A stretch of 64,000 nt of DNA from Staphylococcus phage VB_SavM_JYL01. Under the pieces are notes generated by a model. It was not told the origin of the DNA, did not search any database, and worked only from the letters and a program-made list of their open reading frames with translations. Below, piece by piece: positions 10,359 through 53,876 of the stretch; the first letter of the stretch is position 1, and each line of letters opens with the position of its first letter. The stretch is taken from the sequence record MH159197.1; one strand, 5' to 3'. The position numbers and the translations under genes are program-made.

Positions 10359-10371
10359 GGATGGTTAATAA

Positions 10372-11085: not shown

Positions 11086-11101
11086 TAGAGGTGACTTAAA
11101 A

Positions 11102-12822: not shown

Positions 12823-13685
12823 TGTTAAAAGGATTTTCAGAACATGTAGATAAACCTACAACTATTAAAACCTTATATAAGACCTTAACAAGTGGTAAAG
12901 TAGAATTACTAGGTGTATCTTATGGTAGTGATTACTTCCCTTCAGGTGTTACAGTACAAGCTTATATTGAAGATATAGGTAATGAAGATGAAGGTCTGCA
13001 GTTTGTTAATAAAGTAAACGTAGTGGAATCAATGAAACAGGCTGTAGTAGGTATGAACAATCAATTAGGTTCCTCAGGTCTTGGATATGTTAGAACTGAA
13101 CAACTTAAAAAAGAGCTAGAAGAAACTGGATTAATGACAGATTTACTTGCTAGAGGTACTAACTTAACTTCTACTAAGAAAGTGGATATTGTAAGTACTT
13201 TTATTGAGCCTGAAGTAACATATCAAGACATTACTATAGCTAAAGATATTAAGTTACGTCTATACAAACTAGAAGAAGAGTCACCATTAAACGGTTATAC
13301 ACATATTGTATATCTTCTTACTACAGAGAAATTATATGATGGTCAAACACTATTTGGTATGCTATCTAAGAAAGATAAGTTATCTAAAGGAGATACTGAT
13401 AAATTATTAGCATTCTTTAGAAATAATAGTTTAATAAGTAAAAGTGTATTTTGTGTTAAGTTATTAAGTAAAGACTACTACTTCAATTTATATAATACAC
13501 ATGAAACAGGTATATTCTTTTTAGAAGATACGGATATTATTACTATTGCTTGTGGTCAGTCATACGTTAAAGTTAATACTAAAGATATTAAATCTAGTCA
13601 TGTTAAAATTGAAGATGAGACTCATAAATTAACTGAGCTAGTAATTAACTTAAAAGGTGACGACACATTAACTATTTTATTCTAA
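12822..13685 (+). CDS. hypothetical protein
   Basis: 287-aa ORF. Confidence 0.6.
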   Translation: MLKGFSEHVDKPTTIKTLYKTLTSGKVELLGVSYGSDYFPSGVTVQAYIEDIGNEDEGLQFVNKVNVVESMKQAVVGMNNQLGSSGLGYVRTEQLKKELEETGLMTDLLARGTNLTSTKKVDIVSTFIEPEVTYQDITIAKDIKLRLYKLEEESPLNGYTHIVYLLTTEKLYDGQTLFGMLSKKDKLSKGDTDKLLAFFRNNSLISKSVFCVKLLSKDYYFNLYNTHETGIFFLEDTDIITIACGQSYVKVNTKDIKSSHVKIEDETHKLTELVINLKGDDTLTILF

Positions 13686-34996: not shown

Positions 34997-35282
34997 GACT
35001 AATAGGAGTATGTTGACTAATAAGGAAGATATATAGGAGAGGAGTTAATCAAGTAAAACCAATAAAATCAATTAAAACCAAGTAAAGTAACTAAACAATA
35101 CCTAGAGCCTGGGAAAACTTTTACCTCTCCCACTCAGCCTATTACTTACTACCGACTTCCCTAACTATGTATTCTATAGTTATAATATTCATTTATTATA
35201 CAATACTTAAACTATAGTATTGTAACCTTAATCTATACTGAAGCGGTATTAATCTATTGTTATTATATAATAATCTTATATA

Positions 35283-35414
35283 ATGGTGGTATAATCTAGG
35301 TTATTACATTAGAATCATTCTAATCTAGAATTTTAATCTTTAGACCCTAGGAAAAGTGGTACTAAAATATAGAACCCTATAGGTATGGGATTCTTATTTT
35401 TAAAATTACTAAAA
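35283..35414 (+). ncRNA. candidate small RNA (extended -10 TGGTATAAT to a terminator-like hairpin)
   Basis: An extended -10 aatggtggtataat precedes about 110 nt with no ORF. This ends in agaaccctataggtatgggattct plus tattttt. Confidence 0.25.
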
Positions 35415-35534
35415 AGTATTAGGTTTTCCCTAGGGTAAAGTTTTAATGTACCTAAAATCGTAAGTAGCTCCTTATCATTTAGGTCTGTTTAATTGAGAAT
35501 ATTAGAAGATATCCGCTTCAATTACAATTAAAGG

Positions 35535-35665
35535 TTGACAACTATGAAGCGGTATGTTATACTTAGTATTGTAGGGGTGGTTCCCTACAGACCTAGACTA
35601 TGGTCGTGATTTTGGTTTGCATATTAGTGTCATTCATAACCCCTACTGGAATAGGGGTTATTTTT
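35535..35665 (+). ncRNA. candidate small RNA (promoter TTGACA-17-TATACT to a rho-independent terminator)
   Basis: ttgacaactatgaagcggtatgttatact precedes about 95 nt with no ORF. It holds an internal hairpin tgtaggg-gtggtt-ccctaca and ends in aaccccta-ctggaa-taggggtt plus ttttt. Confidence 0.3.
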
Positions 35666-35674
35666 ATTTAAGTA

Positions 35675-35703
35675 TTGACATACTCTAAGTAGTATGGTAT
35701 GAT
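35675..35703 (+). promoter_or_regulatory. sigma-A-type promoter TTGACA-17-TATGAT
   Basis: ttgacatactctaagtagtatggtatgat. Confidence 0.5.
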
Positions 35704-35726
35704 TAGTATATAAGGAGATGAATAAT

Positions 35727-36023
35727 ATGATTGATATATACTTAGGGGAAAACTATAATACTGATTACTTATCTACTATTATGAATATTATAAAGACTTC
35801 CGCTTCAAGAGAGTTAAGTTATGGGTTTAATAATAAAGAAGCGGATGTAAATATAGAGGATATGAAGTATGAAGGTGATGTTATGCATGTATATGGTACG
35901 ATGTCTATGGATTATCCAGGCTGTATTATTATATGTATTACTAGTGAAGAGACTAAGGTTATATATGGTGGTAACTTTCTAACAGGTACAGGTCTTAGTC
36001 AAGAAGTTAGAGAAAAATTCTAG
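35727..36023 (+). CDS. hypothetical protein, paralog family A member (start MIDIYLGENYN)
   Basis: An SD aaggag sits 9 nt before ATG 35727. The N-terminus matches the 37000, 37290 and 37577 proteins. Confidence 0.65.
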   Translation: MIDIYLGENYNTDYLSTIMNIIKTSASRELSYGFNNKEADVNIEDMKYEGDVMHVYGTMSMDYPGCIIICITSEETKVIYGGNFLTGTGLSQEVREKF

Positions 36024-36034
36024 GGGGAGTTATT

Positions 36035-36205
36035 ATGATTATACCATTAATTATATTCATGATGACCTTCGGTACATTTGCATTCAGTTATGTTGCACAT
36101 GATGCATACAAAGTAGATGAAAAAGGTATCATGTATGCTATGGTAGTTGGTATTGTAGTTATAAATGGGATTGGTTTAGAAATGATAATTGTAGAATGTT
36201 TATAA
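36035..36205 (+). CDS. 56-aa membrane protein (below the track cutoff)
   Basis: An SD tagggggag sits 6 nt before the ATG. The protein has two TM helices. Confidence 0.45.
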   Translation: MIIPLIIFMMTFGTFAFSYVAHDAYKVDEKGIMYAMVVGIVVINGIGLEMIIVECL

Positions 36206-36218
36206 AGGAGGTAGTAAA

Positions 36219-36404
36219 ATGATAGGTCAAATTATACTATTAGCTATTGTTAGTATAGTTACAATAGGTTGTGTAGGATTATTTTTCTATGAGACGTTCA
36301 AGAGTATTAAGTATGATGCTAATGATAAAATCTTTATGATTACTGGGAGTATATTAATGTTAGTTATTATCGTTAGTGGTGCATTAGCTATACTTGGCAT
36401 TTAG
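36219..36404 (+). CDS. small membrane protein
   Basis: 61-aa ORF with two TM helices and an SD aaaggaggt. Confidence 0.5.
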   Translation: MIGQIILLAIVSIVTIGCVGLFFYETFKSIKYDANDKIFMITGSILMLVIIVSGALAILGI

Positions 36405-36672
36405 AGCTCATTTAAGAAGCGGTTAAGTAGTTCATGATAAATTGGTCTAGAAATATATGACCGCTTCTCTATGGAAGGCTGAGAGGGTTTAGAATTGAAA
36501 GGAGAGATATAATGGCTATATTTTTTAGTATTTTATTATTGATTAACATATACTTAATATACTATGAATGTACTTCAGTTACGTTTGATTGGTGTGCACT
36601 GCTTATTTACGTATGCTCATTATGCTCTTGTATTTATTTAATAGTATATTTTGTATAAAAGGAGGAGATATA

Positions 36673-36987
36673 ATGCAAGCAACTATATACTGTGCTAATA
36701 GGTATAGTAAAAATACATTAAAGAGTCTTTTAGAAAAATTAGAAGCGGAGAATAGAAACTTAACATATAGTACTGACATATCAGATATGGAGGAAGTGGA
36801 TGTTATTGTACAACACACTGACTTATCTTTTGCAGAGTTAATGGATTCTTGTGATAGAGTAAGTAAAGGGTCTGACCGCTTCCAAGTATTTGTAGGTAAT
36901 CACGCAGGGTATTATATAAACGGTGATTTATATATTAACGAAGTAGGTAAGTTTATTGTACCTAGGAAAACGAATATGATGATGTAA
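36673..36987 (+). CDS. hypothetical protein, divergent paralog family A member (start MQATIYCANRY)
   Basis: An SD aaaggaggag sits 6 nt before ATG 36673. The shared pattern is IYxxxxYxxxxLKxLLExL...R.LTY. Confidence 0.55.
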   Translation: MQATIYCANRYSKNTLKSLLEKLEAENRNLTYSTDISDMEEVDVIVQHTDLSFAELMDSCDRVSKGSDRFQVFVGNHAGYYINGDLYINEVGKFIVPRKTNMMM

Positions 36988-36999
36988 GGAGGAAATATA

Positions 37000-37290
37000 A
37001 TGATTCATATATTTGTAAAAGAGGATTATAATAAAGAAACATTAAGGAGTTTACTTGAATATATTAATGATACTGTAGGTAGGGAATTAACTTATGGTAT
37101 TAATACAGACTATGATAAGGATGTAGTGATTGAAACCGATGACCCTATAGATGAGGAGAATACGATTGATTTATCAAATCTTCCTCACTTTAAAGATGAC
37201 TTATGTATTCTTATAGAAGAATTATACTGTAAGGCATTTGTTAATGGGGAACCTATTATTATACGTAAGTATGTAGAGGGGATGTTATAA
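37000..37290 (+). CDS. hypothetical protein, paralog family A
   Basis: The protein is MIHIFVKEDYNKETLRSLLEYINDTVGRELTYGIN... The SD is gtaaggagg. Confidence 0.65.
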   Translation: MIHIFVKEDYNKETLRSLLEYINDTVGRELTYGINTDYDKDVVIETDDPIDEENTIDLSNLPHFKDDLCILIEELYCKAFVNGEPIIIRKYVEGML

Positions 37291-37577
37291 TGATTATAAT
37301 ATTTTTAACTGAAAAATATGATGCCAAGGCTTTAAAGAAAGTATTAGAACATATTGATAATTGTAGTAGCAGAGGTCTTAGCTATTTAATGGGAAAAGGA
37401 GAAGCGGATGTATGTATAGAGAAGAATGTATTCAGAGAAAGAGATGATGTAAGGATTAACTCAAACATTATTGATGAAGGTAAACTTTGTATACTCATAA
37501 ATAAAAATGGTTTAGAATGTAGTTACTATAGAGGTGTATCATGTAATATTGGTGCCTTTGTAAAGGAGAGATTATAA
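37290..37577 (+). CDS. hypothetical protein, paralog family A
   Basis: The protein is MIIIFLTEKYDAKALKKVLEHIDNCSSRGLSY... The SD is gagggg. Confidence 0.65.
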   Translation: MIIIFLTEKYDAKALKKVLEHIDNCSSRGLSYLMGKGEADVCIEKNVFRERDDVRINSNIIDEGKLCILINKNGLECSYYRGVSCNIGAFVKERL

Positions 37578-37870
37578 TGATAGAAATATATCTCAGTGAA
37601 AACTATGATAGGGATTTACTCAAAGCAGAATTAAAATGGATTAAAGAGACCGCTTCAAGAGAACTAACTTATGATGTTAATAGAAGCCCAGGATTAGATG
37701 TACATATTAGTCCTTTTAGATATACCAAGGATGAGGTTGAAGAAATGAGCTTACATCCTCAGTTTGAAGATGATGTATGTGTATTTATAGCTGAAACATG
37801 GATACATGAGTATCGTAATGGTAAATCAATAGGTGTAGATAGTATGGAAGAATATGTAAAGGAGATGTAA
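37577..37870 (+). CDS. hypothetical protein, paralog family A
   Basis: The protein is MIEIYLSENYDRDLLKAELKWIKETASRELTY... The SD is aaaggagag. Confidence 0.65.
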   Translation: MIEIYLSENYDRDLLKAELKWIKETASRELTYDVNRSPGLDVHISPFRYTKDEVEEMSLHPQFEDDVCVFIAETWIHEYRNGKSIGVDSMEEYVKEM

Positions 37871-37873
37871 TTA

Positions 37874-38122
37874 ATGGTAGAAACTTATTATACAGTATAT
37901 CATAAGAATAGTATGAAAACTATTAAGGATTACTTAAGTAGAAGTGATTTAATTGACTTCTTATATAAGACTTGGCATAAGGATATAAGTAATATATACC
38001 CAACAGATTATACTACGTATGAAACAAAATTCTGTATAGACATAGATGTAGTTAGATTAATTGAAGCGGTTAATGAAGAAGGTGTATTACTTATTAATGA
38101 AGGTAATATTGTAGAGTGGTAG
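37874..38122 (+). CDS. hypothetical protein, paralog family B
   Basis: The protein contains YTVYHKNSMKTIKDYLSRSD... The SD is aaggagatg. Confidence 0.6.
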   Translation: MVETYYTVYHKNSMKTIKDYLSRSDLIDFLYKTWHKDISNIYPTDYTTYETKFCIDIDVVRLIEAVNEEGVLLINEGNIVEW

Positions 38123-38134
38123 GAGGAGATAAAT

Positions 38135-38374
38135 ATGAGTCAGTTTTTCACGTATACAGTGTATCATACAGAAACAGCTAAAGTAGTAGCTAAGAATTTG
38201 TTTGATGCATCATTGGTGCACCTTATTAACAAGATGATAGAGAAAGATATAGTTAAGGATATTAATTTAGAATATTACATGAATACACGTGGTGTAGTTA
38301 TAGATATGAGTAGACTACTGGATGATATAGAATCACAGGGTGTATTTCTATTCAAACGTAAGCTACATGGATAA
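38135..38374 (+). CDS. hypothetical protein, paralog family B
   Basis: The protein contains TYTVYHTETAKVVAKNL...LLDDIESQGVFLF. The SD is taggaggag. Confidence 0.6.
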   Translation: MSQFFTYTVYHTETAKVVAKNLFDASLVHLINKMIEKDIVKDINLEYYMNTRGVVIDMSRLLDDIESQGVFLFKRKLHG

Positions 38375-38485
38375 TAGGTTAGACCCTAAAAAGTTTGAGA
38401 TACAATAGGATGCTTAGGATAATAGGATAAAAATAACTTAGGATGCTTAGGATGAAATACGATACGATAGGGAGGTTAAGTTAAG

Positions 38486-38725
38486 ATGCAAGAGTTAATA
38501 ACTTATATAATTTACCATAAAGAATCAGGTAAAGTAGTAGCACAGGATTTAAGTGAATTAGAAACTATTGAACTTATATACAAAATGATAGAAGAGGGAT
38601 TAGTAAAAGATATAGAATTATCTAACTACCGTCTTTTTAGTGGGAATATAGATATACTTAACTTATTAGTAGACATACGTAAACAAGGTATATTTGATTT
38701 TGAACATACTTGGCACACAAGATAA
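38486..38725 (+). CDS. hypothetical protein, paralog family B
   Basis: The protein contains TYIIYHKESGKVVAQDL...LLVDIRKQGIFDF. The SD is atagggagg. Confidence 0.6.
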   Translation: MQELITYIIYHKESGKVVAQDLSELETIELIYKMIEEGLVKDIELSNYRLFSGNIDILNLLVDIRKQGIFDFEHTWHTR

Positions 38726-38736
38726 GGAGGGATAGG

Positions 38737-39081
38737 ATGATAGTTATATATTCAGATGAGTCTAGGGATTACTTAAGAGATGAGTTCTTACCTTGGCTTA
38801 ATGATAGAGATAGATATTTAAAATATTATAAGAATGAGTTACCTGAAGATATAGACTCTTCTTATGTTGTATCAGTTGTATACTGTAGGGATATGGAAGG
38901 TCTTATGAATAGGAAAGATATTCTTATTGGTAATAGTTATAGAGAGCCTGTAGCTGTATTAGGTGTTCCTGAATTTTTTGGTAACTATTCTAATTATTAC
39001 TATTATAAAGGAGAGCATATAAGTAAGCATGACCTAGGAGAGATAATTAGGTTAAAGGCTTGGCAACGTAATTTTGACTAA
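38737..39081 (+). CDS. hypothetical protein (start MIVIYSDE)
   Basis: An SD aaggaggg sits 7 nt before ATG 38737. Confidence 0.55.
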   Translation: MIVIYSDESRDYLRDEFLPWLNDRDRYLKYYKNELPEDIDSSYVVSVVYCRDMEGLMNRKDILIGNSYREPVAVLGVPEFFGNYSNYYYYKGEHISKHDLGEIIRLKAWQRNFD

Positions 39082-39165
39082 GTAGCTCTCTCTAATTTCA
39101 CTAAGTAGCTCCCTAGGAATTGCCTAAGTAGCTCGGTGTGATTTTACCCTAAGTAGCTCCCTCTG
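39077..39165 (+). repeat. four direct repeats of CTAAGTAGCTC with 22-25 bp periodicity (iteron-like)
   Basis: gaCTAAGTAGCTCtctc, caCTAAGTAGCTCccta, gcCTAAGTAGCTCggtg and ccCTAAGTAGCTCcctc. Confidence 0.7.
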
Positions 39166-39196
39166 TTTTCTATTAGTTTATTTTAACCGCTTCACG

Positions 39197-39212
39197 TGTC
39201 TATATATAGACA
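39197..39212. promoter_or_regulatory. 16-bp perfect palindrome TGTCTATATATAGACA (operator-like)
   Basis: Read directly from the sequence. It lies in ORF-free DNA between the iteron-like repeats and -10-like boxes. Confidence 0.5.
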
Positions 39213-39565
39213 ATCGGAATAATAGCAGACCGCAAAAAGAAATACACTAGGATATTATTCCCAGTGTATTGTATAATTTTTTTATATAATATTTGTAGAA
39301 GCGGTTGGGGTTTGTCCCTTGCCTTACTACACTTAATATATTACAGTATAGTTATTCAGAAGTCAATACTTTTGAGTAACTTTTTTTTAAATTCTTTTTT
39401 CTTCTATATAATAGTAGTTTTTAGCCCTAAAAAAAGTTTTTTAAAAGAATTTACATTTTCTTATTGACTTATTAATCATATGATAGTAATATAAAGGTAC
39501 AGCAAGAGAACAGCAACAAGGTATTAGAATTATATAAAAAAATTATTTAATTGGAGATGATTTAA

Positions 39566-39874
39566 ATGGATGTAAAAGAAATTGCAGACACTATAATGGA
39601 GTTGTGGCAAATGGACGGATACAGATGTACAGAACCGCCATTATATGAAAGCACATTAAACCACACACGCACATACACGGCTTTAATTGTAAGCATTAAA
39701 GGTAATTACGACACTGTTCAAATGTTCCGTAAAACGCCTATAATGAGCATGAGAGGGCAAAGCCAACCGGCTAGCATGTTAGTAAATGTAATTGATGACG
39801 TGATTATAATCGTATATGAAAATACGGTTTACGGGGTACAGAATAAAGAAATAAAATTTATTGAAGAAATTTAA
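39566..39874 (+). CDS. hypothetical protein
   Basis: 102-aa ORF with an SD aattggagatg. Confidence 0.55.
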   Translation: MDVKEIADTIMELWQMDGYRCTEPPLYESTLNHTRTYTALIVSIKGNYDTVQMFRKTPIMSMRGQSQPASMLVNVIDDVIIIVYENTVYGVQNKEIKFIEEI

Positions 39875-39972
39875 AAATAGGGGTTGCAATACCCCTTAAG
39901 ATGTAGTAATATAATAGATGTAAGGGATAGCAACACACCTTAAAAAACTTTTTAAAAAAGTTAAAGAAAAGT

Positions 39973-40001
39973 GTTGACACCTTACAAGATACATGTTAAT
40001 A
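39973..40001 (+). promoter_or_regulatory. LTR early-type promoter TTGACA-N15-cATGTTAATATTAgt (extended -10 TGTTAATAT) with an upstream A6/T6 UP-like element
   Basis: ttaaaaaactttttaaaaaagttaaagaaaagtgttgacaccttacaagatacatgttaatattag. Confidence 0.5.
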
Positions 40002-40079
40002 TTAGTATAGAAGTTAAGACAAGCCACATAGCAAATAACGAAATTAAATAAAAAAATTATAGAATAGGATTTGATTATT

Positions 40080-40367
40080 ATGACAAACAAAAATTACTTA
40101 TACGAAGAAACTCACACAGTACAAGGGCAAGATATTACGGCTTTCAGAATTCCAAATGACACAAACGGCAACCCACGTTATGTAGTGCATTTCATGGATT
40201 TAGACATTAAACTAGCAGACTATGACAACATCAATAAGCTATACGGATTTAAAAAATATACTGCTAAATGGTTTGGCGGTGGTGTAGTATTCCAAAGCTA
40301 TAATATTGAAGATACATTAAATTACGCACTATCTAATGTTAAAGAAATAGAAGCGGTTAAGAATTAA
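40080..40367 (+). CDS. hypothetical protein (start MTNKNYLY)
   Basis: The conserved leader aggatttgattattATG is present. Confidence 0.55.
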   Translation: MTNKNYLYEETHTVQGQDITAFRIPNDTNGNPRYVVHFMDLDIKLADYDNINKLYGFKKYTAKWFGGGVVFQSYNIEDTLNYALSNVKEIEAVKN

Positions 40368-40376
40368 AACCGCTTC
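40350..40376. other. inverted repeat GAAGCGGTT-(9)-AACCGCTTC overlapping the gene stop
   Basis: gaagcggttaagaattaaaaccgcttc. Confidence 0.6.
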
Positions 40377-40416
40377 TGAATTAAATAAAAAAATTATATA
40401 AAAAGGGTATGATATT

Positions 40417-40608
40417 ATGAAATTTAAAATAGAAAAAAATAACAGTGATATAAAAACTTTATGGAATTTAGCTAAAAATGGATATATGAGTTATCAAACT
40501 GTACACAATATATTTAAAAATGAATCAGATGAATTTATTATATTTAACAGTAAACAAACTTATAATAAATTTATGGAATTAAGATATAATAGAAGTGCAA
40601 TTCAATAG
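40417..40608 (+). CDS. hypothetical protein
   Basis: 63-aa ORF with an SD aaaagggtatg. Confidence 0.5.
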   Translation: MKFKIEKNNSDIKTLWNLAKNGYMSYQTVHNIFKNESDEFIIFNSKQTYNKFMELRYNRSAIQ

Positions 40609-40619
40609 TATAAAAAAGT

Positions 40620-40665
40620 TATATAATTCCCTAGGATTAAATTCCTAGGGATTTTTATTTGTTTT
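40620..40665 (+). terminator. terminator-like hairpin
   Basis: ccctaggatt-aaa-ttcctaggg followed by atttttattt. Confidence 0.5.
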
Positions 40666-40699
40666 AATTTATATAAAAAAATTATTTAATAAATAAATT

Positions 40700-41100
40700 A
40701 GTGTAAAATTGACTGTTGACAAGAATATATTTTTTATGGTATAATGAAGTGAAGACCTTTTTTAGTATAAAAAAATTATTATATAAAAAAATTATATAAA
40801 AAAGTTTAGTTCCGGTCTTTCTCCCCACCTTGTCATATTTATAGTGGAAGGGTTAGGCGGGTTACCACTGTTTTACTTTCTATATATAGTATACTATGAA
40901 TAATGGTAATTGTCAACACCTTTCAGAAACTTTTTTTACTTTATTTTATTATTATATAAAAAAATTATACATATTTTAGGGCTCCACTTCCATTATATAA
41001 TAATTCGGTCTTAATGTCAATACTTTTATTCAAAAAAGTTTTTTAAATTAGTTTCAACAAATCTATTGACTTATGTTTATTTCTATAGTAATATATAGTT
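40700..41100. repeat. intergenic repeat element, copy A (about 390 bp; homologous to 42890..43150, with a diverged core at 45520..45600)
   Basis: The shared order is as follows. A + promoter ttgaca..tataatgaagtgaa comes first, followed by ttttttagtataaaaa and attatataaaaaaattatataaa. A GC-rich core ggtcttt..cccc follows, then a leftward TTGACA-17-TATACT promoter. It closes with aaaaaagtttt..aaatctattgactta..taatatatag. Confidence 0.65.
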
Positions 41101-41124
41101 ATACCAACAAGGGAGGCAATACAA

Positions 41125-41283
41125 ATGCTAAAATTTAAATGGAAAAACAAAACAATCAAATCAACTCAAAAAACGGATAACATTCTTTTACTTCTTATAG
41201 GTGGTTTAGTTGCAACAGTCACACCTAAACTTGTAAACTGGTTTTTACTACTACAAGATAATATAAATATTTTTTTAAGATAA
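41125..41283 (+). CDS. 52-aa membrane protein (below the track cutoff)
   Basis: An SD caagggagg sits 9 nt before the ATG. The protein has one TM helix. Confidence 0.45.
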   Translation: MLKFKWKNKTIKSTQKTDNILLLLIGGLVATVTPKLVNWFLLLQDNINIFLR

Positions 41284-41331
41284 CTATTGACAACTTAGAA
41301 ACAACGTGTTAATATTAAGATACAAGGTAAG

Positions 41332-41351
41332 GGAAGCGGTTGACCGCTTCC
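41332..41351. promoter_or_regulatory. palindrome GGAAGCGGT-tg-ACCGCTTCC directly downstream of promoter 41287 (operator-like)
   Basis: ttgacaacttagaaacaacgtgttaatattaagatacaaggtaagggaagcggttgaccgcttccgacc. Confidence 0.5.
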
Positions 41352-41449
41352 GACCTAAATAAAAAAAGTTTAAAAAAACTATTGACAGTCACTTGAAACC
41401 ATGATATTATTAAGATAACAAAAAACAAACAGAAAAGGAATTGATTATA

Positions 41450-41773
41450 ATGAAATTTATCAAAACTATCGAAAACTTATTAGAAAAAGCAGAAAACAAA
41501 GGGCAAGCAATTTTAAACGGTCGTTACTTTGATGGGTATAGCAAAGGTGAGCTTGAGGAAAAATATGCAATTGAAATTGATGGCAACAAATTGATTATGC
41601 GTCACTGGGGTACACAAACAATTGAGATTGATTTAAGCATAAATGAGATTGTTTCATATTACGGTGAAAGCAATTCAGACCGTGACAGTTTAAACACACT
41701 TGTATATTGCTTAGGAATTGCGCCAAACTTTAGATACTTACCAAGCAAAAACTTATTCATTTACGAAAATTAA
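41450..41773 (+). CDS. hypothetical protein (start MKFIKTIENL)
   Basis: The conserved leader aaaaggaattgattataATG is present. Confidence 0.55.
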   Translation: MKFIKTIENLLEKAENKGQAILNGRYFDGYSKGELEEKYAIEIDGNKLIMRHWGTQTIEIDLSINEIVSYYGESNSDRDSLNTLVYCLGIAPNFRYLPSKNLFIYEN

Positions 41774-41782
41774 TTAAATAAA

Positions 41783-41815
41783 GGGCTTGACTTCCAAGCC
41801 CTACCATGTTATTAT
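41783..41815 (+). promoter_or_regulatory. hairpin with TTGACT in its loop followed by an extended -10 (hairpin-embedded -35 cassette)
   Basis: agggcttg-acttc-caagccct, then accatgttattattaa. Confidence 0.5.
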
Positions 41816-41872
41816 TAAATTGTAAGGTAATCAAGCACAACGACAAAATAAACTGAAAAGGGATTGATGAAA

Positions 41873-42379
41873 ATGACAAATAATAAGGATTTTAATAAAA
41901 ATTTCTTAAGACTACTAAAAGTTAAAAATGTAAATGACAAAAGGGTGCAAGGTTTCATAAACAAGCATGACATTAAACTTAAAGACAAAGAAGAAAGCTC
42001 ACAAGGATATGTTAACGTATTATATAAGGGTTATGACTTTGTAATATCAAAAGACTATGCAGGTCAAACGGCGTTATATGTTAACATGCGTAATTTAGGG
42101 GTTGACTACAAACATTTTAAACATTTAGATTTTAATAATATTGTTCAAGCGTTAGACAGAAAAAATAATAATCGTGTTGAATGTAAGGAAACAAAAACAC
42201 AACAATATAAAGAATTTAAACACCGTCAAAAGACAGAAAAAGAAATGTTAACATACTATGAAAAGGATATCGAAAAGCTAAAAGAAGAACTGGAACGAAC
42301 ACAAAAAATCTACAATGATAAAATAAAGAAAATAGAAAATTACGATAAAAAAATATCTAGACTAAAAAAATCAAAATAA
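41873..42379 (+). CDS. hypothetical basic/coiled-coil protein (start MTNNKDF)
   Basis: The conserved leader aaagggattgatgaaaATG is present. Confidence 0.55.
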   Translation: MTNNKDFNKNFLRLLKVKNVNDKRVQGFINKHDIKLKDKEESSQGYVNVLYKGYDFVISKDYAGQTALYVNMRNLGVDYKHFKHLDFNNIVQALDRKNNNRVECKETKTQQYKEFKHRQKTEKEMLTYYEKDIEKLKEELERTQKIYNDKIKKIENYDKKISRLKKSK

Positions 42380-42448
42380 GGCTTGACACTTTCAAGCCCT
42401 CATGATATACTTAGTATAACAAATCAAAAAGAAAAGGAATTGATGAAA

Positions 42449-42829
42449 ATGTTCAAATTACAAAATAAAGTGGAAATTATCGTACCTAAGGAAGATAACA
42501 ACGGCGTTGAGATTGCAGACAAACGTATTAAAGAATATGTAAATAGCATCACAATGGAAGCGGGTGGTTGTACTATTACAGAAATCAAAGGGCAATGGTA
42601 CTCAGAAGATGAAAAACGTATAATGGAAGATAACAACTTAAATCTTGAGTGGTACTACATGCAAGACAGTGCCAAATTCATGACAGTTGAATTAAAAGGC
42701 ATTGTAAGACGTTTAATTGAAGTTTACGGACAAGAAGCAATAAGCATTAAAGTTAACGGCACATTGTACATTGTAGACCAATCAGACATTGAAGAATTAC
42801 ACACAACATTATTAAATATCATGAAATAA
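42449..42829 (+). CDS. hypothetical protein (start MFKLQNKVEI)
   Basis: The conserved leader aaaaggaattgatgaaaATG follows the hairpin-promoter aaggcttgacactttcaagccct. Confidence 0.55.
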   Translation: MFKLQNKVEIIVPKEDNNGVEIADKRIKEYVNSITMEAGGCTITEIKGQWYSEDEKRIMEDNNLNLEWYYMQDSAKFMTVELKGIVRRLIEVYGQEAISIKVNGTLYIVDQSDIEELHTTLLNIMK

Positions 42830-42889
42830 AAAATTTATATAAACCGCTTCGGATTAAATTCTTGAAGTGGTTATTTTCTTTTAAATTAG

Positions 42890-43150
42890 TGCTTGACAAA
42901 TGTACTAAAAAATGAGATAATGAAGTGAACGCATTTTTTAGTATAAAAATAATATTATATAAAAAAATTATATAAATGAATTTATTTCAGGTCTTTCCCG
43001 TAACCCCTCTTGGGCTACCCTGGTATCTCTACAATTATTATTATACTATAGGTCATGAAGATTGTCAATAACTTTCTTCAAAATAATTTATTTAAAAAAG
43101 TTTCATAAATCTATTGACTTACTATTAATTATGGTGTAATATATAGATAT
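42890..43150. repeat. intergenic repeat element, copy B
   Basis: Aligns with copy A. It contains the leftward promoter TTGACA-17-TATAAT (RC of attattatactataggtcatgaagattgtcaata) and the GC core ggtctttcccgtaacccctcttgggctaccctggta. Confidence 0.65.
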
Positions 43151-43271
43151 AAGGTTAAGGAAGCGGAACACCTAAAAAAGAAATTAAAAAAACTTTTAAA
43201 AAGGTGTTGACAAACTTCAAACCACATGTTAATATTAAGATAACAAATAAAACAAAAAGGAATTGATAATT

Positions 43272-43493
43272 ATGAACAGATTAGAAATAATAAAAGACAC
43301 GGCAATGGAATACATCATTATGATGGATAACGGAGTTATGGACGGACAATTGACACAAGAAGAATACAACGAAGCGGTTAGCTTTGAAAAGGTTTACGAT
43401 TACACTTTATCAGAAGCAAATCAAGAATGTAAATTCTTAGGCGGTAAAATTTTAACTTTCCTAGTACATGAAGCAATTGAAGAATACGCATAA
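43272..43493 (+). CDS. hypothetical acidic protein (start MNRLEIIK)
   Basis: The conserved leader aaaaggaattgataattATG is present. Confidence 0.5.
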   Translation: MNRLEIIKDTAMEYIIMMDNGVMDGQLTQEEYNEAVSFEKVYDYTLSEANQECKFLGGKILTFLVHEAIEEYA

Positions 43494-43574
43494 AAAAACT
43501 TAATCAAAGGGGTTGACATTCAACCCCTTACCATGTTAATATTAATATATACCAAATGAGAGGAATTGATAATT

Positions 43575-43712
43575 ATGAGATACGAAATCGTAACATTAGT
43601 TAATGGAGAATTATTCATGTTTGCAACATTTAAGAAAGCAGAGGCAGAAAATAAATATCAAGAATGGTGTGACTTGTACGGTCAAGAAAATGTAAGCATG
43701 GAAAAAAATTAA
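43575..43712 (+). CDS. 45-aa hypothetical protein (below the track cutoff)
   Basis: The leader agaggaattgataattATG follows the hairpin-promoter aaggggttgacattcaacccctt. Confidence 0.4.
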   Translation: MRYEIVTLVNGELFMFATFKKAEAENKYQEWCDLYGQENVSMEKN

Positions 43713-43782
43713 AATAAGGGGTTGACACTTAACCCCTTAGATGTTATTATTAATATATACTAAAGAAAAGGAAATGATAAAA

Positions 43783-44019
43783 ATGAAATTATTAAACCAA
43801 GAAAATGAAATCGTAAAAGAAATGGTAACTTTTAGAGACGTAAAACAAGCCCTAATTTGGGAATACATCGACCACATAGATAATAACATCCTAAACAATG
43901 AAATTCATGACACAGAAGCGGTTGTGGTTACTTCTGAGACTCTACAATCAATCAAATTTGCAGACACTATGGAAGACCTGCAGGAATACATTGCAGATAT
44001 CAATTGGAAATTAGTTTAA
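43783..44019 (+). CDS. hypothetical protein (start MKLLNQENEIV)
   Basis: The leader aaaaggaaatgataaaaATG follows the hairpin-promoter aaggggttgacacttaacccctt. Confidence 0.5.
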   Translation: MKLLNQENEIVKEMVTFRDVKQALIWEYIDHIDNNILNNEIHDTEAVVVTSETLQSIKFADTMEDLQEYIADINWKLV

Positions 44020-44113
44020 AAAAAGTTTTAAATAACTGTTGACACCTTAGCAAATAGATGGTAATATAAGAGTATAAAGAAAAACAAAAAAAAACGAAAA
44101 GGATTTGATTATA

Positions 44114-44458
44114 ATGACAAACTTACTAAACACTATTGAGATGGATTTTGAATACTATGGAGTACAATTTGAAAATGGATGGAAACACAATGCCTACACT
44201 GTAGAGCTAACACATAATGGAGTTACCGAAGAATTTGACTGGAAACAAGGAATAGGAATTCACGAAGAGCCTGAACTAGAAAGCATCTTAGAAAGCTTAA
44301 TGCTAGATATTCATTACTATGAAGAAGATATTTATTCAATGTATGAGGACGAAGAACAGGCAGAAAAAATAATTGAGAAGTTAGAAGAACAAACTAAAAA
44401 GGTAAATAAACTATTTACAGATGAGGAACAAGCAGACCTAGTTGAATACTTTGAATAG
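44114..44458 (+). CDS. hypothetical acidic protein (start MTNLLNTIEM)
   Basis: The leader aaaaggatttgattataATG follows promoter 44039 ttgacaccttagcaaatagatggtaatat. Confidence 0.55.
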   Translation: MTNLLNTIEMDFEYYGVQFENGWKHNAYTVELTHNGVTEEFDWKQGIGIHEEPELESILESLMLDIHYYEEDIYSMYEDEEQAEKIIEKLEEQTKKVNKLFTDEEQADLVEYFE

Positions 44459-44483
44459 TATCAGGAAACACACAGAGACCCAC

Positions 44484-44505
44484 AGAAGCGGATTAATCCG
44501 CTTCT
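44484..44505. other. 22-bp perfect palindrome AGAAGCGGATTAATCCGCTTCT
   Basis: Read directly from the sequence. It sits immediately after the stop of 44114..44458. Confidence 0.6.
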
Positions 44506-44532
44506 AATATAATTAATCAGGAGATGTTAAAG

Positions 44533-44697
44533 ATGACAATTAAAGAGGTTATAAGCCAATTAGAATTAGTAGAAAATAAAGAACTTGAATTGTACGTATG
44601 CGACAAGGAAAATAATAACATTTCAATTAATGATATTATTTTGTTCGATAGTGAAGCAGAGCACACAGAAAACAACCCACTAGGGATTAATTATTAG
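44533..44697 (+). CDS. 54-aa hypothetical protein (below the track cutoff)
   Basis: The leader aatcaggagatgttaaagATG duplicates the leader of the 44710 gene. Confidence 0.45.
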   Translation: MTIKEVISQLELVENKELELYVCDKENNNISINDIILFDSEAEHTENNPLGINY

Positions 44698-44709
44698 GAG
44701 ATGTTGAAC

Positions 44710-44883
44710 ATGAACACAAGAAGGGTAAACAAAGCGTTAAACGAAGCAGTTAGATTATTAGACAAGCAAATAGCAGACACACAGAAAACAATGCAGGAGT
44801 TAAATAAACAACTAGAACAACAGATAAAAGCTAAGCAGGAGCTAATGACATTAGTTGATGCTATGACTGGTGATGATGAGTAA
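44710..44883 (+). CDS. hypothetical coiled-coil protein (start MNTRRVNK)
   Basis: The leader attaggagatgttgaacATG is present. Confidence 0.5.
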   Translation: MNTRRVNKALNEAVRLLDKQIADTQKTMQELNKQLEQQIKAKQELMTLVDAMTGDDE

Positions 44884-45152
44884 TGAACGTTAGAGAGGTT
44901 CATGATGTCGTTAAGAGTGCAAAGAGCAAACTCCTGCAGGAGCAGAATAATATTAATAATGTAATGATATATGAATACATCACAGAAGAGCTTCACAGAC
45001 GCACACAGAGAAGCGGAACAATACAGATGAACAATAACACCGCTTCATATAGTAATGGCTCATATGGTAGCTTAGAAGAGCTTAGAGAAGCTTATGACCT
45101 CTCTTCTCTATCTACTGATGAGATTAAAGAACTACTTGAAACATTTGTTTAA
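44883..45152 (+). CDS. hypothetical protein
   Basis: 89-aa ORF whose start overlaps the upstream stop. Confidence 0.5.
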   Translation: MNVREVHDVVKSAKSKLLQEQNNINNVMIYEYITEELHRRTQRSGTIQMNNNTASYSNGSYGSLEELREAYDLSSLSTDEIKELLETFV

Positions 45153-45236
45153 ATTATTTTATCAAAACGCTTTACAATCTTTTAGTTTGTATGATATAAT
45201 GAACTTAACAAATTAAAAGAAAAGGAAATGATGAAC

Positions 45237-45458
45237 ATGAGAGACTTACAAGAGAGAAAAAGAGAATTAAAAACATTACTATTTAACTTAGCCATAGAGA
45301 AGAATAGAGCAACGGATGAGCAGTTAAGAGAAGTATTAGAACAATCACATCAAGAAGTGATGTATCAATTAAATAAAGTTAGAAAAGAAATTGAAATTTT
45401 AGTTGAAGAAAAAGAAAGAGAATTTTGGAATGATTTCGATTTTAATGGATTAGATTAA
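45237..45458 (+). CDS. hypothetical protein (start MRDLQERK)
   Basis: Promoter TTTACA-18-TGaTATAAT is followed by the leader aaaaggaaatgatgaacATG. Confidence 0.5.
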   Translation: MRDLQERKRELKTLLFNLAIEKNRATDEQLREVLEQSHQEVMYQLNKVRKEIEILVEEKEREFWNDFDFNGLD

Positions 45459-45486
45459 GAGGGAATAAAATCCCTCTTTTATTTTT
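45459..45486 (+). terminator. rho-independent terminator
   Basis: agaggga-ataaaa-tccctct followed by tttatttttat. Confidence 0.65.
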
Positions 45487-45519
45487 ATCCTATTATATAA
45501 TTTTTTTATATTATACGGG

Positions 45520-45600
45520 GGCAGGGGTAAAATGCCACTCAATGGGGGTGGGTCTATATACCCCTACGGTCTACCCAGGTACTTATTTTTTGGGGAAAAT
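45520..45600. repeat. GC-rich structured element, third diverged copy of the repeat core
   Basis: gggtctatatacccctacggtctacccaggtac aligns with copy B ggtctttcccgtaacccctcttgggctaccctggta. It is followed by ttattttttgggg. Confidence 0.4.
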
Positions 45601-45620
45601 TATGAAAATAAATATTTAAA

Positions 45621-45742
45621 AGTCAACACATAAAATATAGAAAGTAAGTCAACATCCCTTATAATAAGTCAACATTATAACCTTACTTGGTAAGTCAACA
45701 ATTTATAGTACAAATATAAAGCCTCTAAATATAAAGTCAACA
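45621..45742. repeat. five direct repeats of (T/A)AAGTCAACA at irregular spacing (26/20/26/42 bp)
   Basis: Copies lie at 45621, 45647, 45667, 45693 and 45735. The reverse complement TGTTGACTT matches the left-side copy atgttgactaataagg at 35007-35024. Confidence 0.65.
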
Positions 45743-45783
45743 TATATAAAATAAGAAGAGAGGTATATCCTCTCCTCTCTTAA

Positions 45784-46074
45784 CTAGATAAGTACGATTC
45801 TATTATTTAGTTCCTGTTCTATTCTATTTAAATGCTCCCAAACCTCAATCCAGTTTACTCTTGAATCATCATAATAAAGGTGGAAATCTTGAGGGTTTTC
45901 TAAATATGCTTCTAGTTCATCATAGTATAGAACATCAAAAGCTGTGTCATCAAGACCTATTTGAATCTTTAGTATATCTCTATATCCTAATTGTTTATTA
46001 CCGCAATAAGCTGTATCTTCTAACCGCTTCTCTAGTTTATTAAATAGTGTTTGTATACCTTGTAGTTCATTCAT
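45784..46074 (-). CDS. hypothetical protein
   Basis: 96-aa ORF with an SD aggagg (RC) 9 nt before the start. It contains one GAAGCGG motif. Confidence 0.6.
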   Translation of the reverse strand: MNELQGIQTLFNKLEKRLEDTAYCGNKQLGYRDILKIQIGLDDTAFDVLYYDELEAYLENPQDFHLYYDDSRVNWIEVWEHLNRIEQELNNRIVLI

Positions 46075-53327: not shown

Positions 53328-53876
53328 TCAAGATAATTTATCAATTGAATCCATAATTTTTGATGTACTTCTTATATCCGCTTCTTTACTGTGTTTAAGA
53401 AGATATTTTAATTTCATTAGAAAAGAATTCTTTTCCTTTTCTATAGTATCTTTCTTGTTACTATATTCTGAATACATCATAAATTCTATAAATATACTAT
53501 TTCTGTCAGATGAAAACATATCTATAGAAAATGGACAATCAAAACTTATGTCATCTTTATTAATACTAAAACATTCAGTAACATTTAAGTCATTTATTTC
53601 ATATACCTCGAAATATCTATCAACTCTTTTAATTTCTATAGCACTATTATATCTATAATAACGTTGTTCCTCTATTAACTTATCTTTTGTTAGATAAGGA
53701 TATTCATTTATAAATATAGGATTACTTGTTCCATAGTTATTTTTAATATATTCAGCATCTTCTAAGGAATCAGTATAACCTAAAACTTCGTAACTTGTTG
53801 TATACACAGTATCTTCTTCCCACAAGTCATAGTCCATTTCCTCTATTTCTTCCTCTAGTATATAAATTTTTTTCAT
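53328..53876 (-). CDS. hypothetical protein
   Basis: 182-aa ORF. Confidence 0.6.
   Translation of the reverse strand: MKKIYILEEEIEEMDYDLWEEDTVYTTSYEVLGYTDSLEDAEYIKNNYGTSNPIFINEYPYLTKDKLIEEQRYYRYNSAIEIKRVDRYFEVYEINDLNVTECFSINKDDISFDCPFSIDMFSSDRNSIFIEFMMYSEYSNKKDTIEKEKNSFLMKLKYLLKHSKEADIRSTSKIMDSIDKLS

What the first reader, a model, noticed from the sequence alone, without database searches (positions are those of the whole stretch)
35239..46030. GAAGCGG(T)/(A)CCGCTTC octamer massively enriched and confined to the 35-46 kb block
I count about 29 copies, in both orientations, between 35239 and 46030. Only about 2 near-matches occur in the other 53 kb, for example 53385. In 30% GC DNA an 8-mer of this composition is expected under 0.1 times in 11 kb. 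The copies occur in intergenic DNA and in hairpins. They also occur in at least three reading frames inside genes, where they encode EAD, TASRE or KRF. The constraint is therefore at the nucleic-acid level. Several copies form perfect palindromes at 40350-40376, 41332-41351 and 44484-44505. Candidate roles are a recognition site for a takeover regulator or nucleoid protein, a concatemer-resolution or packaging-associated site, or a modification or anti-restriction target.
Basis: seen in the sequence. Interest (0 to 1): 0.65.

Follow-up and report, generated by a model that had tools for sequence, protein, structure and literature searches.

The report
Host Chi-site island in phage terminal repeat
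The enriched motif GAAGCGG is the known Chi signal that tells the Staphylococcus aureus DNA-end-degrading enzyme AddAB/RexAB to stop; this Kayvirus-type phage packs about 27 copies, in both orientations, into the long terminal repeat found at both ends of its linear genome, most likely to shield those ends and promote repeat-to-repeat recombination.

Summary
The exact heptamer GAAGCGG occurs 29 times in the window against 0.38 expected, and 28 copies lie in 35240-46030. The window is a Staphylococcus Kayvirus-like phage (Herelleviridae, Twortvirinae). The block is its long terminal repeat (LTR, about 35112-45576), which holds 27 sites. GAAGCGG is the published S. aureus Chi sequence.

- **Specificity:** only the exact 7-mer is enriched. 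All 27 AGCGG in the LTR are full GAAGCGG, and the flanks are not conserved.
- **Conservation:** sites are conserved above background in phages K and Stab20.
- **Confinement:** phage K has 20 sites per LTR and none in 131 kb of unique DNA.
- **Other genera:** Twort and Romulus, with unrelated LTR sequence, show the same island. In both, GAAGCGG is the most clustered 7-mer.
- **Other host:** in Bacillus phage SPO1 the k-mer most enriched in the terminal redundancy is AGCGG, the B. subtilis Chi.
- **Architecture:** inverted Chi pairs are over-represented.

Best explanation: a bidirectional Chi buffer that halts AddAB/RexAB resection inside the redundant DNA and feeds LTR-LTR recombination. No biochemistry was run here. 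I found no prior description for these phages. The closest known cases are the Chi-rich termini of P1 and the LLS-type lambdoid phages. I class it as a new member of a known kind, of moderate to high interest.

The parts
35112..45576 (+). Long terminal repeat (LTR) of a Kayvirus-like phage, present once in this collapsed assembly. It carries small early ('Tre') genes on the + strand and holds 27 Chi sites (16 +, 11 -), a density of 2.58 per kb.
   Evidence: The left edge matches position 1 of records opened at the physical terminus. Alignment to the Stab20 repeat_region 1-10814 gives both edges. The phage K LTR end maps to the same place. The right edge is interpolated to within a few bases.
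35240..35246 (+). Chi (GAAGCGG), intergenic
   Evidence: conserved in K and Stab20
35513..35519 (-). Chi, intergenic. First site in the orientation active against an enzyme entering at the left terminus, 401 bp from the end. Inverted pair with 35546.
35546..35552 (+). Chi, intergenic, inside the spacer of a TTGACA-N17-TATACT promoter-like site
35800..35806 (-). Chi inside + ORF 35718-36023. Inverted pair with 35838.
35838..35844 (+). Chi inside + ORF 35718-36023 (codons GAA GCG G..)
36416..36422 (+). Chi, intergenic. Inverted pair with 36461.
36461..36467 (-). Chi, intergenic
36742..36748 (+). Chi in + ORF 36589-36987, a cassette absent from K and Stab20
36876..36882 (-). Chi in + ORF 36589-36987, a cassette absent from K and Stab20
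37401..37407 (+). Chi in + ORF 37290-37577
37650..37656 (-). Chi in + ORF 37577-37870
38063..38069 (+). Chi in + ORF 37874-38122
39187..39193 (-). Chi, intergenic, just downstream of the 23-bp tandem array
39298..39304 (+). Chi, intergenic
40350..40376 (.). Inverted Chi pair (40350 +, 40370 -). Hairpin-capable, 9-bp arms, no T-tail.
   Evidence: both sites conserved in K and Stab20
41332..41351 (.). Inverted Chi pair (41333 +, 41344 -), a 20-bp near-perfect palindrome, intergenic
42557..42563 (+). Chi in + ORF 42383-42829. The only copy followed by G.
42844..42850 (-). Chi, intergenic
43160..43166 (+). Chi, intergenic. Its context is paralogous to that of 41333.
43371..43377 (+). Chi in + ORF 43263-43493
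43915..43921 (+). Chi in + ORF 43741-44019
44484..44505 (.). Inverted Chi pair (44485 +, 44498 -), a perfect 22-bp palindrome, intergenic
45010..45016 (+). Chi in + ORF 44883-45152. First site in the orientation active against an enzyme entering at the right terminus, about 560 bp from the end. Inverted pair with 45040.
45040..45046 (-). Chi in + ORF 44883-45152
46024..46030 (-). Chi about 450 bp outside the LTR, in - ORF 45784-46074. Not present in K or Stab20; possibly chance.
53378..53384 (-). Isolated Chi in unique DNA, compatible with chance

Best explanation
**What it is.** The motif is the Chi site of the host, 5'-GAAGCGG-3'. AddAB, called RexAB in S. aureus, recognises it on the 3'-ended strand. 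The phage has accumulated 20-27 exact copies, and keeps them under selection, only in its long terminal repeat. In the virion that repeat sits at both ends of the linear genome.

**How it most likely works (inferred).**
1. After injection, AddAB/RexAB loads on the free ends and starts degrading both strands.
2. Within about 0.4-0.6 kb it meets the first correctly oriented Chi, and many more follow. Minus-strand copies act at the left end and plus-strand copies at the right end.
3. Each encounter has a chance of switching the enzyme from degradation to producing a 3' single-stranded tail. With 11 and 16 chances respectively, almost every enzyme is stopped before it leaves the repeat.
4. Only redundant DNA is therefore lost.
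5. The 3' tail is homologous to the repeat at the other end or on a sibling genome. It can invade that copy through host RecA or the phage RecA/UvsX-like recombinase. The result would be circles or concatemers and recombination-primed replication.

**Likely side benefits.** The sites could titrate AddAB/RexAB. They could also limit AddAB-dependent CRISPR spacer capture from the injected end.

**Shown versus inferred.** Motif identity, confinement to the repeat, selection on the exact sequence and the parallel in phages of another host are shown. The biochemical steps are inferred from what is known of AddAB and Chi.
For: **Identity.** GAAGCGG is the published S. aureus Chi (Halpern 2007, as cited).

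**Enrichment.** There are 29 copies against 0.38 expected. LTR density is 2.58 per kb, about 22 times that of the host chromosome, which has 335 per 2.82 Mb.

**Confinement to the LTR.**
- 27 of the 29 sites in the window lie in the LTR.
- Phage K has 20 per LTR copy and 0 in 131,345 bp of unique DNA. GAAGCGG is by far the 7-mer most enriched in its LTR relative to the rest.

**Exactness.** All AGCGG and AAGCGG in the LTR are full heptamers, no mismatch variant is enriched and the flanks carry no information.

**Purifying selection.** Conservation is 18 of 20 sites against a 49% background in K (P=1.4e-4). It is 22 of 23 against 71% in Stab20 (P=0.004). Non-homologous cassettes bring their own sites.

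**Independent lineages on the same host genus.**
- Twort has all 15 sites within 7.6 kb of its early small-gene block and none elsewhere.
- Romulus has 8 of 9 sites within 4.7 kb.
- In both, an agnostic scan ranks GAAGCGG as the most clustered 7-mer.

**Different host.** In SPO1 the top 5-mer enriched in the terminal redundancy is AGCGG, the B. subtilis Chi (46 versus 97). The top 6-mer is GAGCGG (24 versus 14). SPO1 also has inverted pairs.

**Negative control.** The S. aureus siphovirus SA2 carries Tre-like genes but only 1 site in 89 kb.

**Polarity and mechanism.** The literature describes the polarity and mechanism of AddAB and RecBCD. In S. aureus, AddAB degradation from free ends is bounded by Chi in vivo.

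**Both orientations.** Both orientations are present. Inverted pairs are over-represented: 7 against 1.6 expected (P=1.5e-4), with no direct pairs. This fits a repeat that must work at both ends.
Against: - No experiment links RexAB to these sites. One review notes that a direct AddAB-GAAGCGG interaction and hotspot activity have not been shown biochemically for S. aureus.
- The two host Chi sequences are nested, since AGCGG lies within GAAGCGG. The SPO1 parallel therefore does not fully exclude a conserved phage protein that reads an AGCGG core.
- The pattern is not universal in Herelleviridae. Listeria A511 and Enterococcus phiEF24C show no clear island, although the Chi of those hosts is unknown.
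- Unlike the 'no Rec module, high Chi' lambdoid phages, phage K encodes a RecA-like recombinase and SbcCD-like nucleases. Dependence on the host pathway is therefore not obvious.
- There is no orientation gradient within the repeat.
- It is unknown whether the virion DNA ends are accessible to RexAB.
Confidence: 0.8

Rival explanations
1. The sites are Chi, but their selected role is purely recombinational. They make the LTR a hotspot so that the two ends, or sibling genomes, recombine into circles or concatemers needed for replication and packaging. End protection would be incidental. RexAB would then be a pro-viral host factor.
For: P1 needs host RecA and RecBCD to cyclise through its terminal redundancy and has about 50 Chi sites near it. 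Lambdoid phages rich in Chi grow better with RecBCD. Confinement to the only repeated, and therefore recombinable, DNA of the genome fits this role.
Against: The phage has its own RecA/UvsX-like recombinase and SbcCD-like nuclease. Sequence alone cannot separate this from protection, because both follow from the same recognition event.
Confidence: 0.35
2. The heptamer is the operator of a phage-encoded or host DNA-binding protein, such as a takeover regulator or a nucleoid protein. That protein would act on the early region, and the match to Chi would be a coincidence.
For: The motif is confined to the early, host-takeover region. Some copies lie near promoters: one is in a promoter spacer and three are 47-49 bp upstream of -35 boxes. 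Inverted pairs are enriched.
Against: - The motif is identical to the host Chi.
- It has no fixed phase with promoters.
- Thirteen of 27 copies are inside ORFs.
- Pair spacing varies from 11 to 45 bp.
- There is no flanking conservation and no degenerate variants.
- The same motif is found in LTRs of unrelated sequence in Twort and Romulus.
- SPO1 uses the Chi of its own host.
Confidence: 0.07
3. The motif marks the repeat for the packaging and replication machinery. For example, it could tell the terminase or a repeat-duplicating process which DNA is the LTR.
For: The motif is confined to the LTR in every Twortvirinae genome examined. How these phages generate their repeats is not understood (own knowledge).
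Against: The sites are spread over the whole repeat and not at its edges. Their number and positions vary with cassette content. The sequence tracks the host Chi: a 7-mer in Staphylococcus phages and a 5-mer in SPO1.
Confidence: 0.04
4. The palindromic copies are transcription terminators or RNA stability hairpins, and the heptamer is simply a favoured GC-rich stem.
For: Three pairs can form 9-11-bp stems.
Against: None has a T-tail. The 15 terminator-like hairpins found in the region use other stems, such as CCCTAGG, and none contains Chi. Twenty-one of the 27 LTR sites are outside those three hairpin-forming palindromes, and 13 belong to no inverted pair at all.
Confidence: 0.03

Closest known systems
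Chi (crossover hotspot instigator) of S. aureus, 5'-GAAGCGG-3', the signal for AddAB/RexAB (Halpern et al. 2007, as cited)
   Same: The sequence is identical, with an exact-match requirement. The relation to free DNA ends is the same as on the host chromosome, where Chi bounds AddAB degradation.
   Different: In the chromosome the sites occur about once per 8.4 kb and about 90% are co-oriented with replication. Here they occur at 2.6 per kb, in both orientations, often as inverted pairs, and only in a viral terminal repeat.
Chi-rich termini of E. coli phages: P1 (about 50 Chi sites in or near its terminal redundancy) and LLS-type lambdoid phages (23 Chi sites clustered at the right end)
   Same: Host Chi is far over-represented and clustered next to the DNA end that the host helicase-nuclease enters. 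The proposed use is host-driven recombination or cyclisation.
   Different: - Those phages deal with RecBCD and the octamer GCTGGTGG. Here it is AddAB and a heptamer.
- LLS has one active orientation (20 versus 3). The LTR island is bidirectional.
- The LLS class lacks its own recombination module, whereas Kayviruses encode RecA-like and SbcCD-like proteins.
- These hosts are Gram-positive and the phages are virulent myoviruses.
T5-like phages, which have long terminal repeats and reported Chi over-representation (Bobay et al. 2013)
   Same: Linear genome with 10-kb terminal repeats that carry pre-early genes.
   Different: T5 has only 2 Chi sites per repeat and 4 in 101 kb of unique DNA. That is nothing like the 20-27-site island seen here.
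Terminal redundancy of Bacillus phage SPO1 (host-takeover module)
   Same: Same virus family and same genome architecture. Its repeat is enriched for the Chi of its own host: AGCGG is 4.3-fold and GAGCGG 15-fold denser than in unique DNA. It also has inverted pairs.
   Different: The motif is a 5-6-mer, the enrichment is weaker, and sites also occur outside the repeat.
Chi-containing linear DNA used to protect templates from RecBCD in cell-free expression systems
   Same: The principle is the same: Chi on linear DNA blunts or titrates the nuclease. A review of such methods was listed but not read, so the rest rests on my own knowledge.
   Different: That is an engineered system for E. coli. 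This one is natural and evolved.

Membership tests
S. aureus Chi site (AddAB/RexAB) | Sequence equals the experimentally defined heptamer 5'-GAAGCGG-3' | tested here: met
   29 exact copies.
S. aureus Chi site (AddAB/RexAB) | Selection acts on the exact sequence, not on a degenerate consensus or a longer element | tested here: met
   No single-mismatch variant is enriched. All 27 AGCGG and AAGCGG in the LTR are full heptamers. The flanks carry no information. Conservation exceeds background.
S. aureus Chi site (AddAB/RexAB) | Orientation-dependent recognition by the enzyme travelling from a double-stranded end | not testable with these tools
   Only compatibility can be shown. Each terminus has a correctly oriented site within 0.4-0.6 kb, with 11 such sites at the left end and 16 at the right.
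S. aureus Chi site (AddAB/RexAB) | Attenuates degradation of linear DNA in vivo (assay of high-molecular-weight plasmid multimers) or in vitro (protected Chi fragment) | not testable with these tools
   This needs RexAB biochemistry or genetics.
Chi-enriched phage termini (P1, LLS-type lambdoid phages) | Chi density far above both the composition-based expectation and the host density | tested here: met
   2.58 per kb, against about 0.006 per kb expected and 0.12 per kb in the host.
Chi-enriched phage termini (P1, LLS-type lambdoid phages) | Clustering next to the physical DNA ends | tested here: met
   The sites are confined to the LTR in the window, in K and in Stab20. They are clustered in the equivalent early block of Twort and Romulus.
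Chi-enriched phage termini (P1, LLS-type lambdoid phages) | Strong bias to the single active orientation | tested here: not met
   The split is 16 + to 11 - (13 to 7 in K). This is expected if one sequence must serve both ends, but it differs from LLS, which has 20 to 3.
Chi-enriched phage termini (LLS class: 'no Rec module, high Chi') | The phage lacks its own recombinase and any RecBCD inhibitor | tested here: not met
   The phage K annotation lists a RecA-like protein and SbcCD-like nuclease genes. An AddAB inhibitor was not searched for.
Chi-enriched phage termini | Growth is enhanced by the host helicase-nuclease | not testable with these tools
   This needs plating on rexAB mutants.
Operator or regulator binding site | Fixed position relative to promoters, dyad symmetry with fixed spacing, and a tolerated degenerate consensus | tested here: not met
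   The sites fall in promoter spacers, upstream regions, ORFs and gene ends. Pair spacing is 11-45 bp. There are no degenerate variants.
Rho-independent terminator (for the palindromic copies) | GC-rich hairpin followed by a T-run | tested here: not met
   None of the 15 terminator-like sites contains Chi, and the Chi palindromes lack T-tails.

The most novel reading that the evidence does not exclude
Staphylococcal Twortvirinae, and SPO1, may have turned their terminal repeat into a dedicated bidirectional Chi buffer. In that reading, infection depends on the host AddAB/RexAB to process the ends and start LTR-LTR recombination and replication. The host nuclease would be a required pro-viral factor rather than a defence. 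The same island would also suppress CRISPR spacer capture from the entering end. If true, rexAB status would affect susceptibility to therapeutic Kayviruses. K-mer enrichment in terminal repeats could also be used to read out unknown Chi sequences of other Firmicutes.
Probability: 0.3. Interest if true: 0.8.

Novelty: new member of a known kind. Interest (0 to 1): 0.62.

Why it matters
Kayviruses such as K, ISP and Sb-1-like phages are the main therapeutic phages against S. aureus, and how their linear DNA survives entry is not understood.

A 20-27-site Chi island confined to the terminal repeat gives a concrete, testable answer. The phage appears to use the host's own 'self' signal to disarm RexAB exactly where loss of DNA is harmless, and probably to drive the recombination that starts replication.

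It would matter in four ways:
- It extends Chi-based phage strategies from E. coli and RecBCD to Gram-positive AddAB systems and to virulent myoviruses.
- It offers independent genomic support for GAAGCGG as a functional S. aureus Chi, for which a direct biochemical demonstration is said to be lacking.
- It explains a long-unannotated feature of the LTR.
- It predicts host factors (rexAB, recA) and phage sites that could alter therapeutic efficacy or the acquisition of CRISPR immunity.

Tried and rejected
- **Part of a longer repeat family.** Rejected. The repeat families in the LTR are promoter and ribosome-binding-site units. Only about three pairs of Chi contexts are paralogous.
- **Promoter element.** Rejected. 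There is no fixed offset from the -35 or -10 boxes.
- **Terminator stems.** Rejected.
- **By-product of Tre gene coding.** Rejected. Fourteen of 27 sites are intergenic, which is more than the 31% intergenic share predicts (P=0.019). The siphovirus SA2, which has Tre-like genes, has only 1 site in 89 kb.
- **General property of all phages with long terminal repeats.** Not supported. T5 has only 2 Chi sites per repeat.
- **General property of all Herelleviridae.** Not supported. Listeria A511 has a short 3.1-kb LTR with AGCGG only 2.7-fold enriched. Enterococcus phiEF24C gives no clear Chi-like island; its top clustered k-mers are promoter boxes. The Chi of those hosts is unknown, so this remains inconclusive.
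- **Orientation gradient within the LTR or in the flanking unique DNA.** None is convincing. In SPO1 the flanks are + biased on both sides, probably for coding reasons.
- **Literature.** Searches for a prior description of Chi in Kayvirus, Twort-like or Herelleviridae repeats found nothing. The Halpern 2007 and SPO1 genome papers could not be opened.

Full report
**1.

A search for GAAGCGG on both strands finds 29 exact copies in the 64-kb window. One hundred dinucleotide-preserving shuffles give a mean of 0.38 and never more than 2. Twenty-eight copies lie between 35240 and 46030, and the remaining one is at 53378-53384 on the minus strand.

The unit is the heptamer. The next base is T (18), A (10) or G (1), and no other flanking position within 15 bases carries information. 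None of the 21 single-mismatch variants is enriched in the block. Every AGCGG (27) and every AAGCGG (27) in the block is part of a full GAAGCGG. Outside the block only 2 of 11 AGCGG are.

**2. What the block is**

Megablast places the window in the Staphylococcus Kayvirus group (Herelleviridae, Twortvirinae). It is 97% identical to phage KMSP1 and matches 283 records. The genes under the match are annotated as 'terminal repeat-encoded proteins'.

Several records opened at the physical genome end start exactly at window position 35112. Alignment to the annotated repeat_region of Stab20 (1-10814) puts the long terminal repeat (LTR) at about 35112-45576. The end of the phage K repeat agrees with this.

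GC skew flips just to the right of the LTR, where transcription turns to the minus strand.

The LTR holds 27 sites, 16 on the plus strand and 11 on the minus strand. The site at 46024 is about 450 bp outside it.

**3. What the motif is**

GAAGCGG is the Chi sequence of S. aureus. It was identified by Halpern et al. 2007 as the sequence that lets a rolling-circle plasmid accumulate high-molecular-weight DNA in S. aureus. It occurs 335 times in a 2.82-Mb chromosome, about 90% co-oriented with replication. It contains the B. subtilis Chi, AGCGG.

AddAB, called RexAB in S. aureus, binds DNA ends and degrades both strands. On meeting a correctly oriented Chi on the 3'-ended strand it stops cutting that strand and leaves a 3' tail for RecA. 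In S. aureus, degradation from free ends is bounded by Chi in vivo, as seen through CRISPR spacer acquisition.

The LTR density of 2.58 per kb is about 22 times that of the chromosome.

**4. Confinement and selection**

- **Phage K.** In the complete record (148,317 bp, with the 8,486-bp LTR at both ends) there are 20 sites in each LTR copy and none in the 131,345 bp between them. A comparison of 7-mers in the LTR against the rest, with no prior, ranks GAAGCGG first by a wide margin.
- **Conservation.** Where the window LTR aligns to K or Stab20, Chi heptamers are conserved more often than ordinary heptamers. The figures are 18 of 20 against a 49% background (P=1.4e-4) and 22 of 23 against 71% (P=0.004).
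- **Variable cassettes.** Segments with no homologue in the other phages carry their own sites, and the other phages have private sites too. Density stays at 2.3-2.6 per kb through cassette turnover.
- **Location.** Fourteen of 27 sites are intergenic although only 31% of the LTR is (P=0.019). The 13 in ORFs use whatever frame is cheap; 9 of 10 plus-strand copies read GAA-GCG-G.
- **Independence.** Only about three pairs of sites share paralogous context, so most are independent.

**5. The pattern follows the host, not the phage sequence**

- **Twort (Twortvirus).** All 15 of its sites lie within 88.4-96.0 kb, the block of small early genes before the strand switch. There are none in the other 123 kb.
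- **Romulus (Silviavirus).** Eight of its 9 sites lie within 100.8-105.5 kb, the equivalent block.
- **Agnostic scan.** In both genomes a scan for spatial clustering ranks GAAGCGG as the most clustered 7-mer. The same scan recovers it in the window and in K.
- **SPO1.** In this Bacillus phage, of the same family and with a 13,185-bp terminal redundancy, the most enriched 5-mer is AGCGG, the B. subtilis Chi (46 in the repeat against 97 in 119 kb). The most enriched 6-mer is GAGCGG (24 against 14). The specificity is thus a 7-mer in phages of the host whose Chi is a 7-mer, and a 5-6-mer in the phage of the host whose Chi is a 5-mer.
- **Negative control.** The S. aureus siphovirus SA2 carries Tre-like early genes but has only 1 GAAGCGG in 89 kb.

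The pattern has limits. Listeria A511 and Enterococcus phiEF24C show no clear island, and the Chi of those hosts is unknown. T5 has just 2 E. coli Chi sites per repeat.

**6. Architecture**

Chi acts only on an enzyme approaching from its 3' side. A top-strand copy stops an enzyme that entered at the right end. The same LTR sequence sits at both ends, so minus copies serve the left end and plus copies serve the right end. This explains why both orientations are kept.

The first active site is 401 bp from the left end (35513) and about 560 bp from the right end (45010). The same holds in K and Stab20.

Sites also tend to come as inverted pairs no more than 50 bp apart. The window has 7 pairs against 1.6 expected (P=1.5e-4), and direct pairs are absent. 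Stab20 and K show the same, as does the independent Twort lineage (P=0.0016). SPO1 also has inverted pairs.

Pair spacing varies from 11 to 45 bp, so the pairs do not look like a dimer operator. None has a T-tail. The region's terminator-like hairpins use other stems. Why pairs are favoured remains open. A compact two-way stop signal is one possibility. Templated conversion within hairpins is another.

**7. Mechanism proposed**

The steps below are inferred from established AddAB and Chi biology.

1. RexAB loads on the injected ends and begins to degrade them.
2. Recognition at each site is probabilistic. At 0.3 per site, 11 or 16 chances stop 98% or 99.7% of enzymes inside the repeat (the per-site value is an assumption).
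3. Only redundant DNA is lost, which explains why sites outside the repeat would be useless and are absent.
4. The Chi-ended 3' tail is homologous to the other repeat copy. It can be used by host RecA or by the phage RecA-like protein to make circles or concatemers and to prime replication.
5. Titration of RexAB and restriction of spacer capture are plausible extras.

**8. Rivals**

A regulator operator, a packaging mark and terminator stems are each contradicted by the tests above. Their main residual support is that AGCGG is common to both host Chi sequences, so a conserved phage protein reading that core is not formally excluded.

A split within the Chi explanation, between protection and obligatory recombination, cannot be resolved from sequence.

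**9. Relation to what is known**

Chi over-representation in phages is known for E. coli. P1 has about 50 sites near its terminal redundancy and needs RecA and RecBCD to cyclise. LLS-type lambdoid phages have about 23 sites clustered at one end, grow better with RecBCD and lack their own recombination module. T5-like phages are reported as Chi-rich.

The present case is the same kind of thing in a new setting. It involves an AddAB-type Chi, virulent Gram-positive myoviruses, strict confinement to a repeat present at both ends, bidirectional and paired sites, and a phage that has its own recombinase.

Seven literature searches found no description of Chi in Kayvirus, Twort-like or Herelleviridae repeats. 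The library is incomplete, and two key papers could not be opened.

**10. Verdict**

The feature is a host-Chi island in the phage terminal repeat. Confidence is about 0.8 that Chi and RexAB recognition is the selected property. It is a new member of a known kind, with interest of about 0.6.

Noticed in passing
window 39073-39164: An array of about four 23-bp tandem repeats (consensus TTTCACTAAGTAGCTCCCTCTAA) sits in an LTR intergenic region, just upstream of the Chi site at 39187. It looks iteron-like and could be a protein-binding array or an origin-related element.
   Followed up: partly
window 40628-40651; also phage K LTR (L002 1-8486): A second LTR-specific 7-mer, CCCTAGG, occurs 7 times in the K LTR and 0 times in 131 kb of unique DNA. 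In the window it forms the stem of a T-tailed terminator-like hairpin (TCCCTAGG...CCTAGGGA). It looks like a family of early-region terminators that share a stem.
   Followed up: partly
window 39935-44087 (four 88-nt copies, at 39935-40022, 41248-41335, 43168-43255 and 44000-44087; a related family runs 39954-43753): A repeated early-promoter unit (A-rich tract, TGTTGACA, 17 nt, TGTTAATATTA) recurs, followed by a shared ribosome-binding-site and start context (AAAAGGAATTGAT..ATG). Strong sigma-A-like promoters recur before most small LTR genes.
   Followed up: partly
SPO1 NC_011421 (L005-L007), 1-13185: The SPO1 terminal redundancy is enriched for the B. subtilis Chi (AGCGG 46 versus 97; GAGCGG 24 versus 14) and has inverted pairs, for example 6781/6790, 8945/8954 and 9583/9592. 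The 18 kb next to the right repeat has 14 plus-strand and 3 minus-strand AGCGG. RefSeq also annotates gp21.6 as a 'host RecBCD nuclease inhibitor'.
   Followed up: partly
Twort NC_007021 88.4-96.0 kb (L012); Romulus NC_020877 100.8-105.5 kb (L010): In records with no annotated repeat, the GAAGCGG cluster marks the probable position and extent of the terminal repeat. The motif could serve as a practical marker for LTRs in collapsed Twortvirinae assemblies.
   Followed up: partly
T5 NC_005859 (L017-L019): T5 has 2 E. coli Chi sites in each 10.2-kb terminal repeat (8127 and 8689, both +) and only 4 in the 101-kb unique part. This is a mild enrichment based on very small numbers.
   Followed up: yes
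VB-SauS-SA2 MH356730 about 31.4-32 kb (L020): This S. aureus siphovirus has no Chi island. Instead it has a dense cluster of TGTATGT/GTATGTG repeats in a gene-free stretch after its Tre-like genes. Their function is unknown.
   Followed up: no
window about 45.6-46.2 kb: GC and AT skew change sign and the coding strand switches from + to - right at the inner LTR boundary. Divergent promoter-like sites and back-to-back terminator-like hairpins lie at 45457-45478 (+) and 45753-45779 (-).
   Followed up: partly
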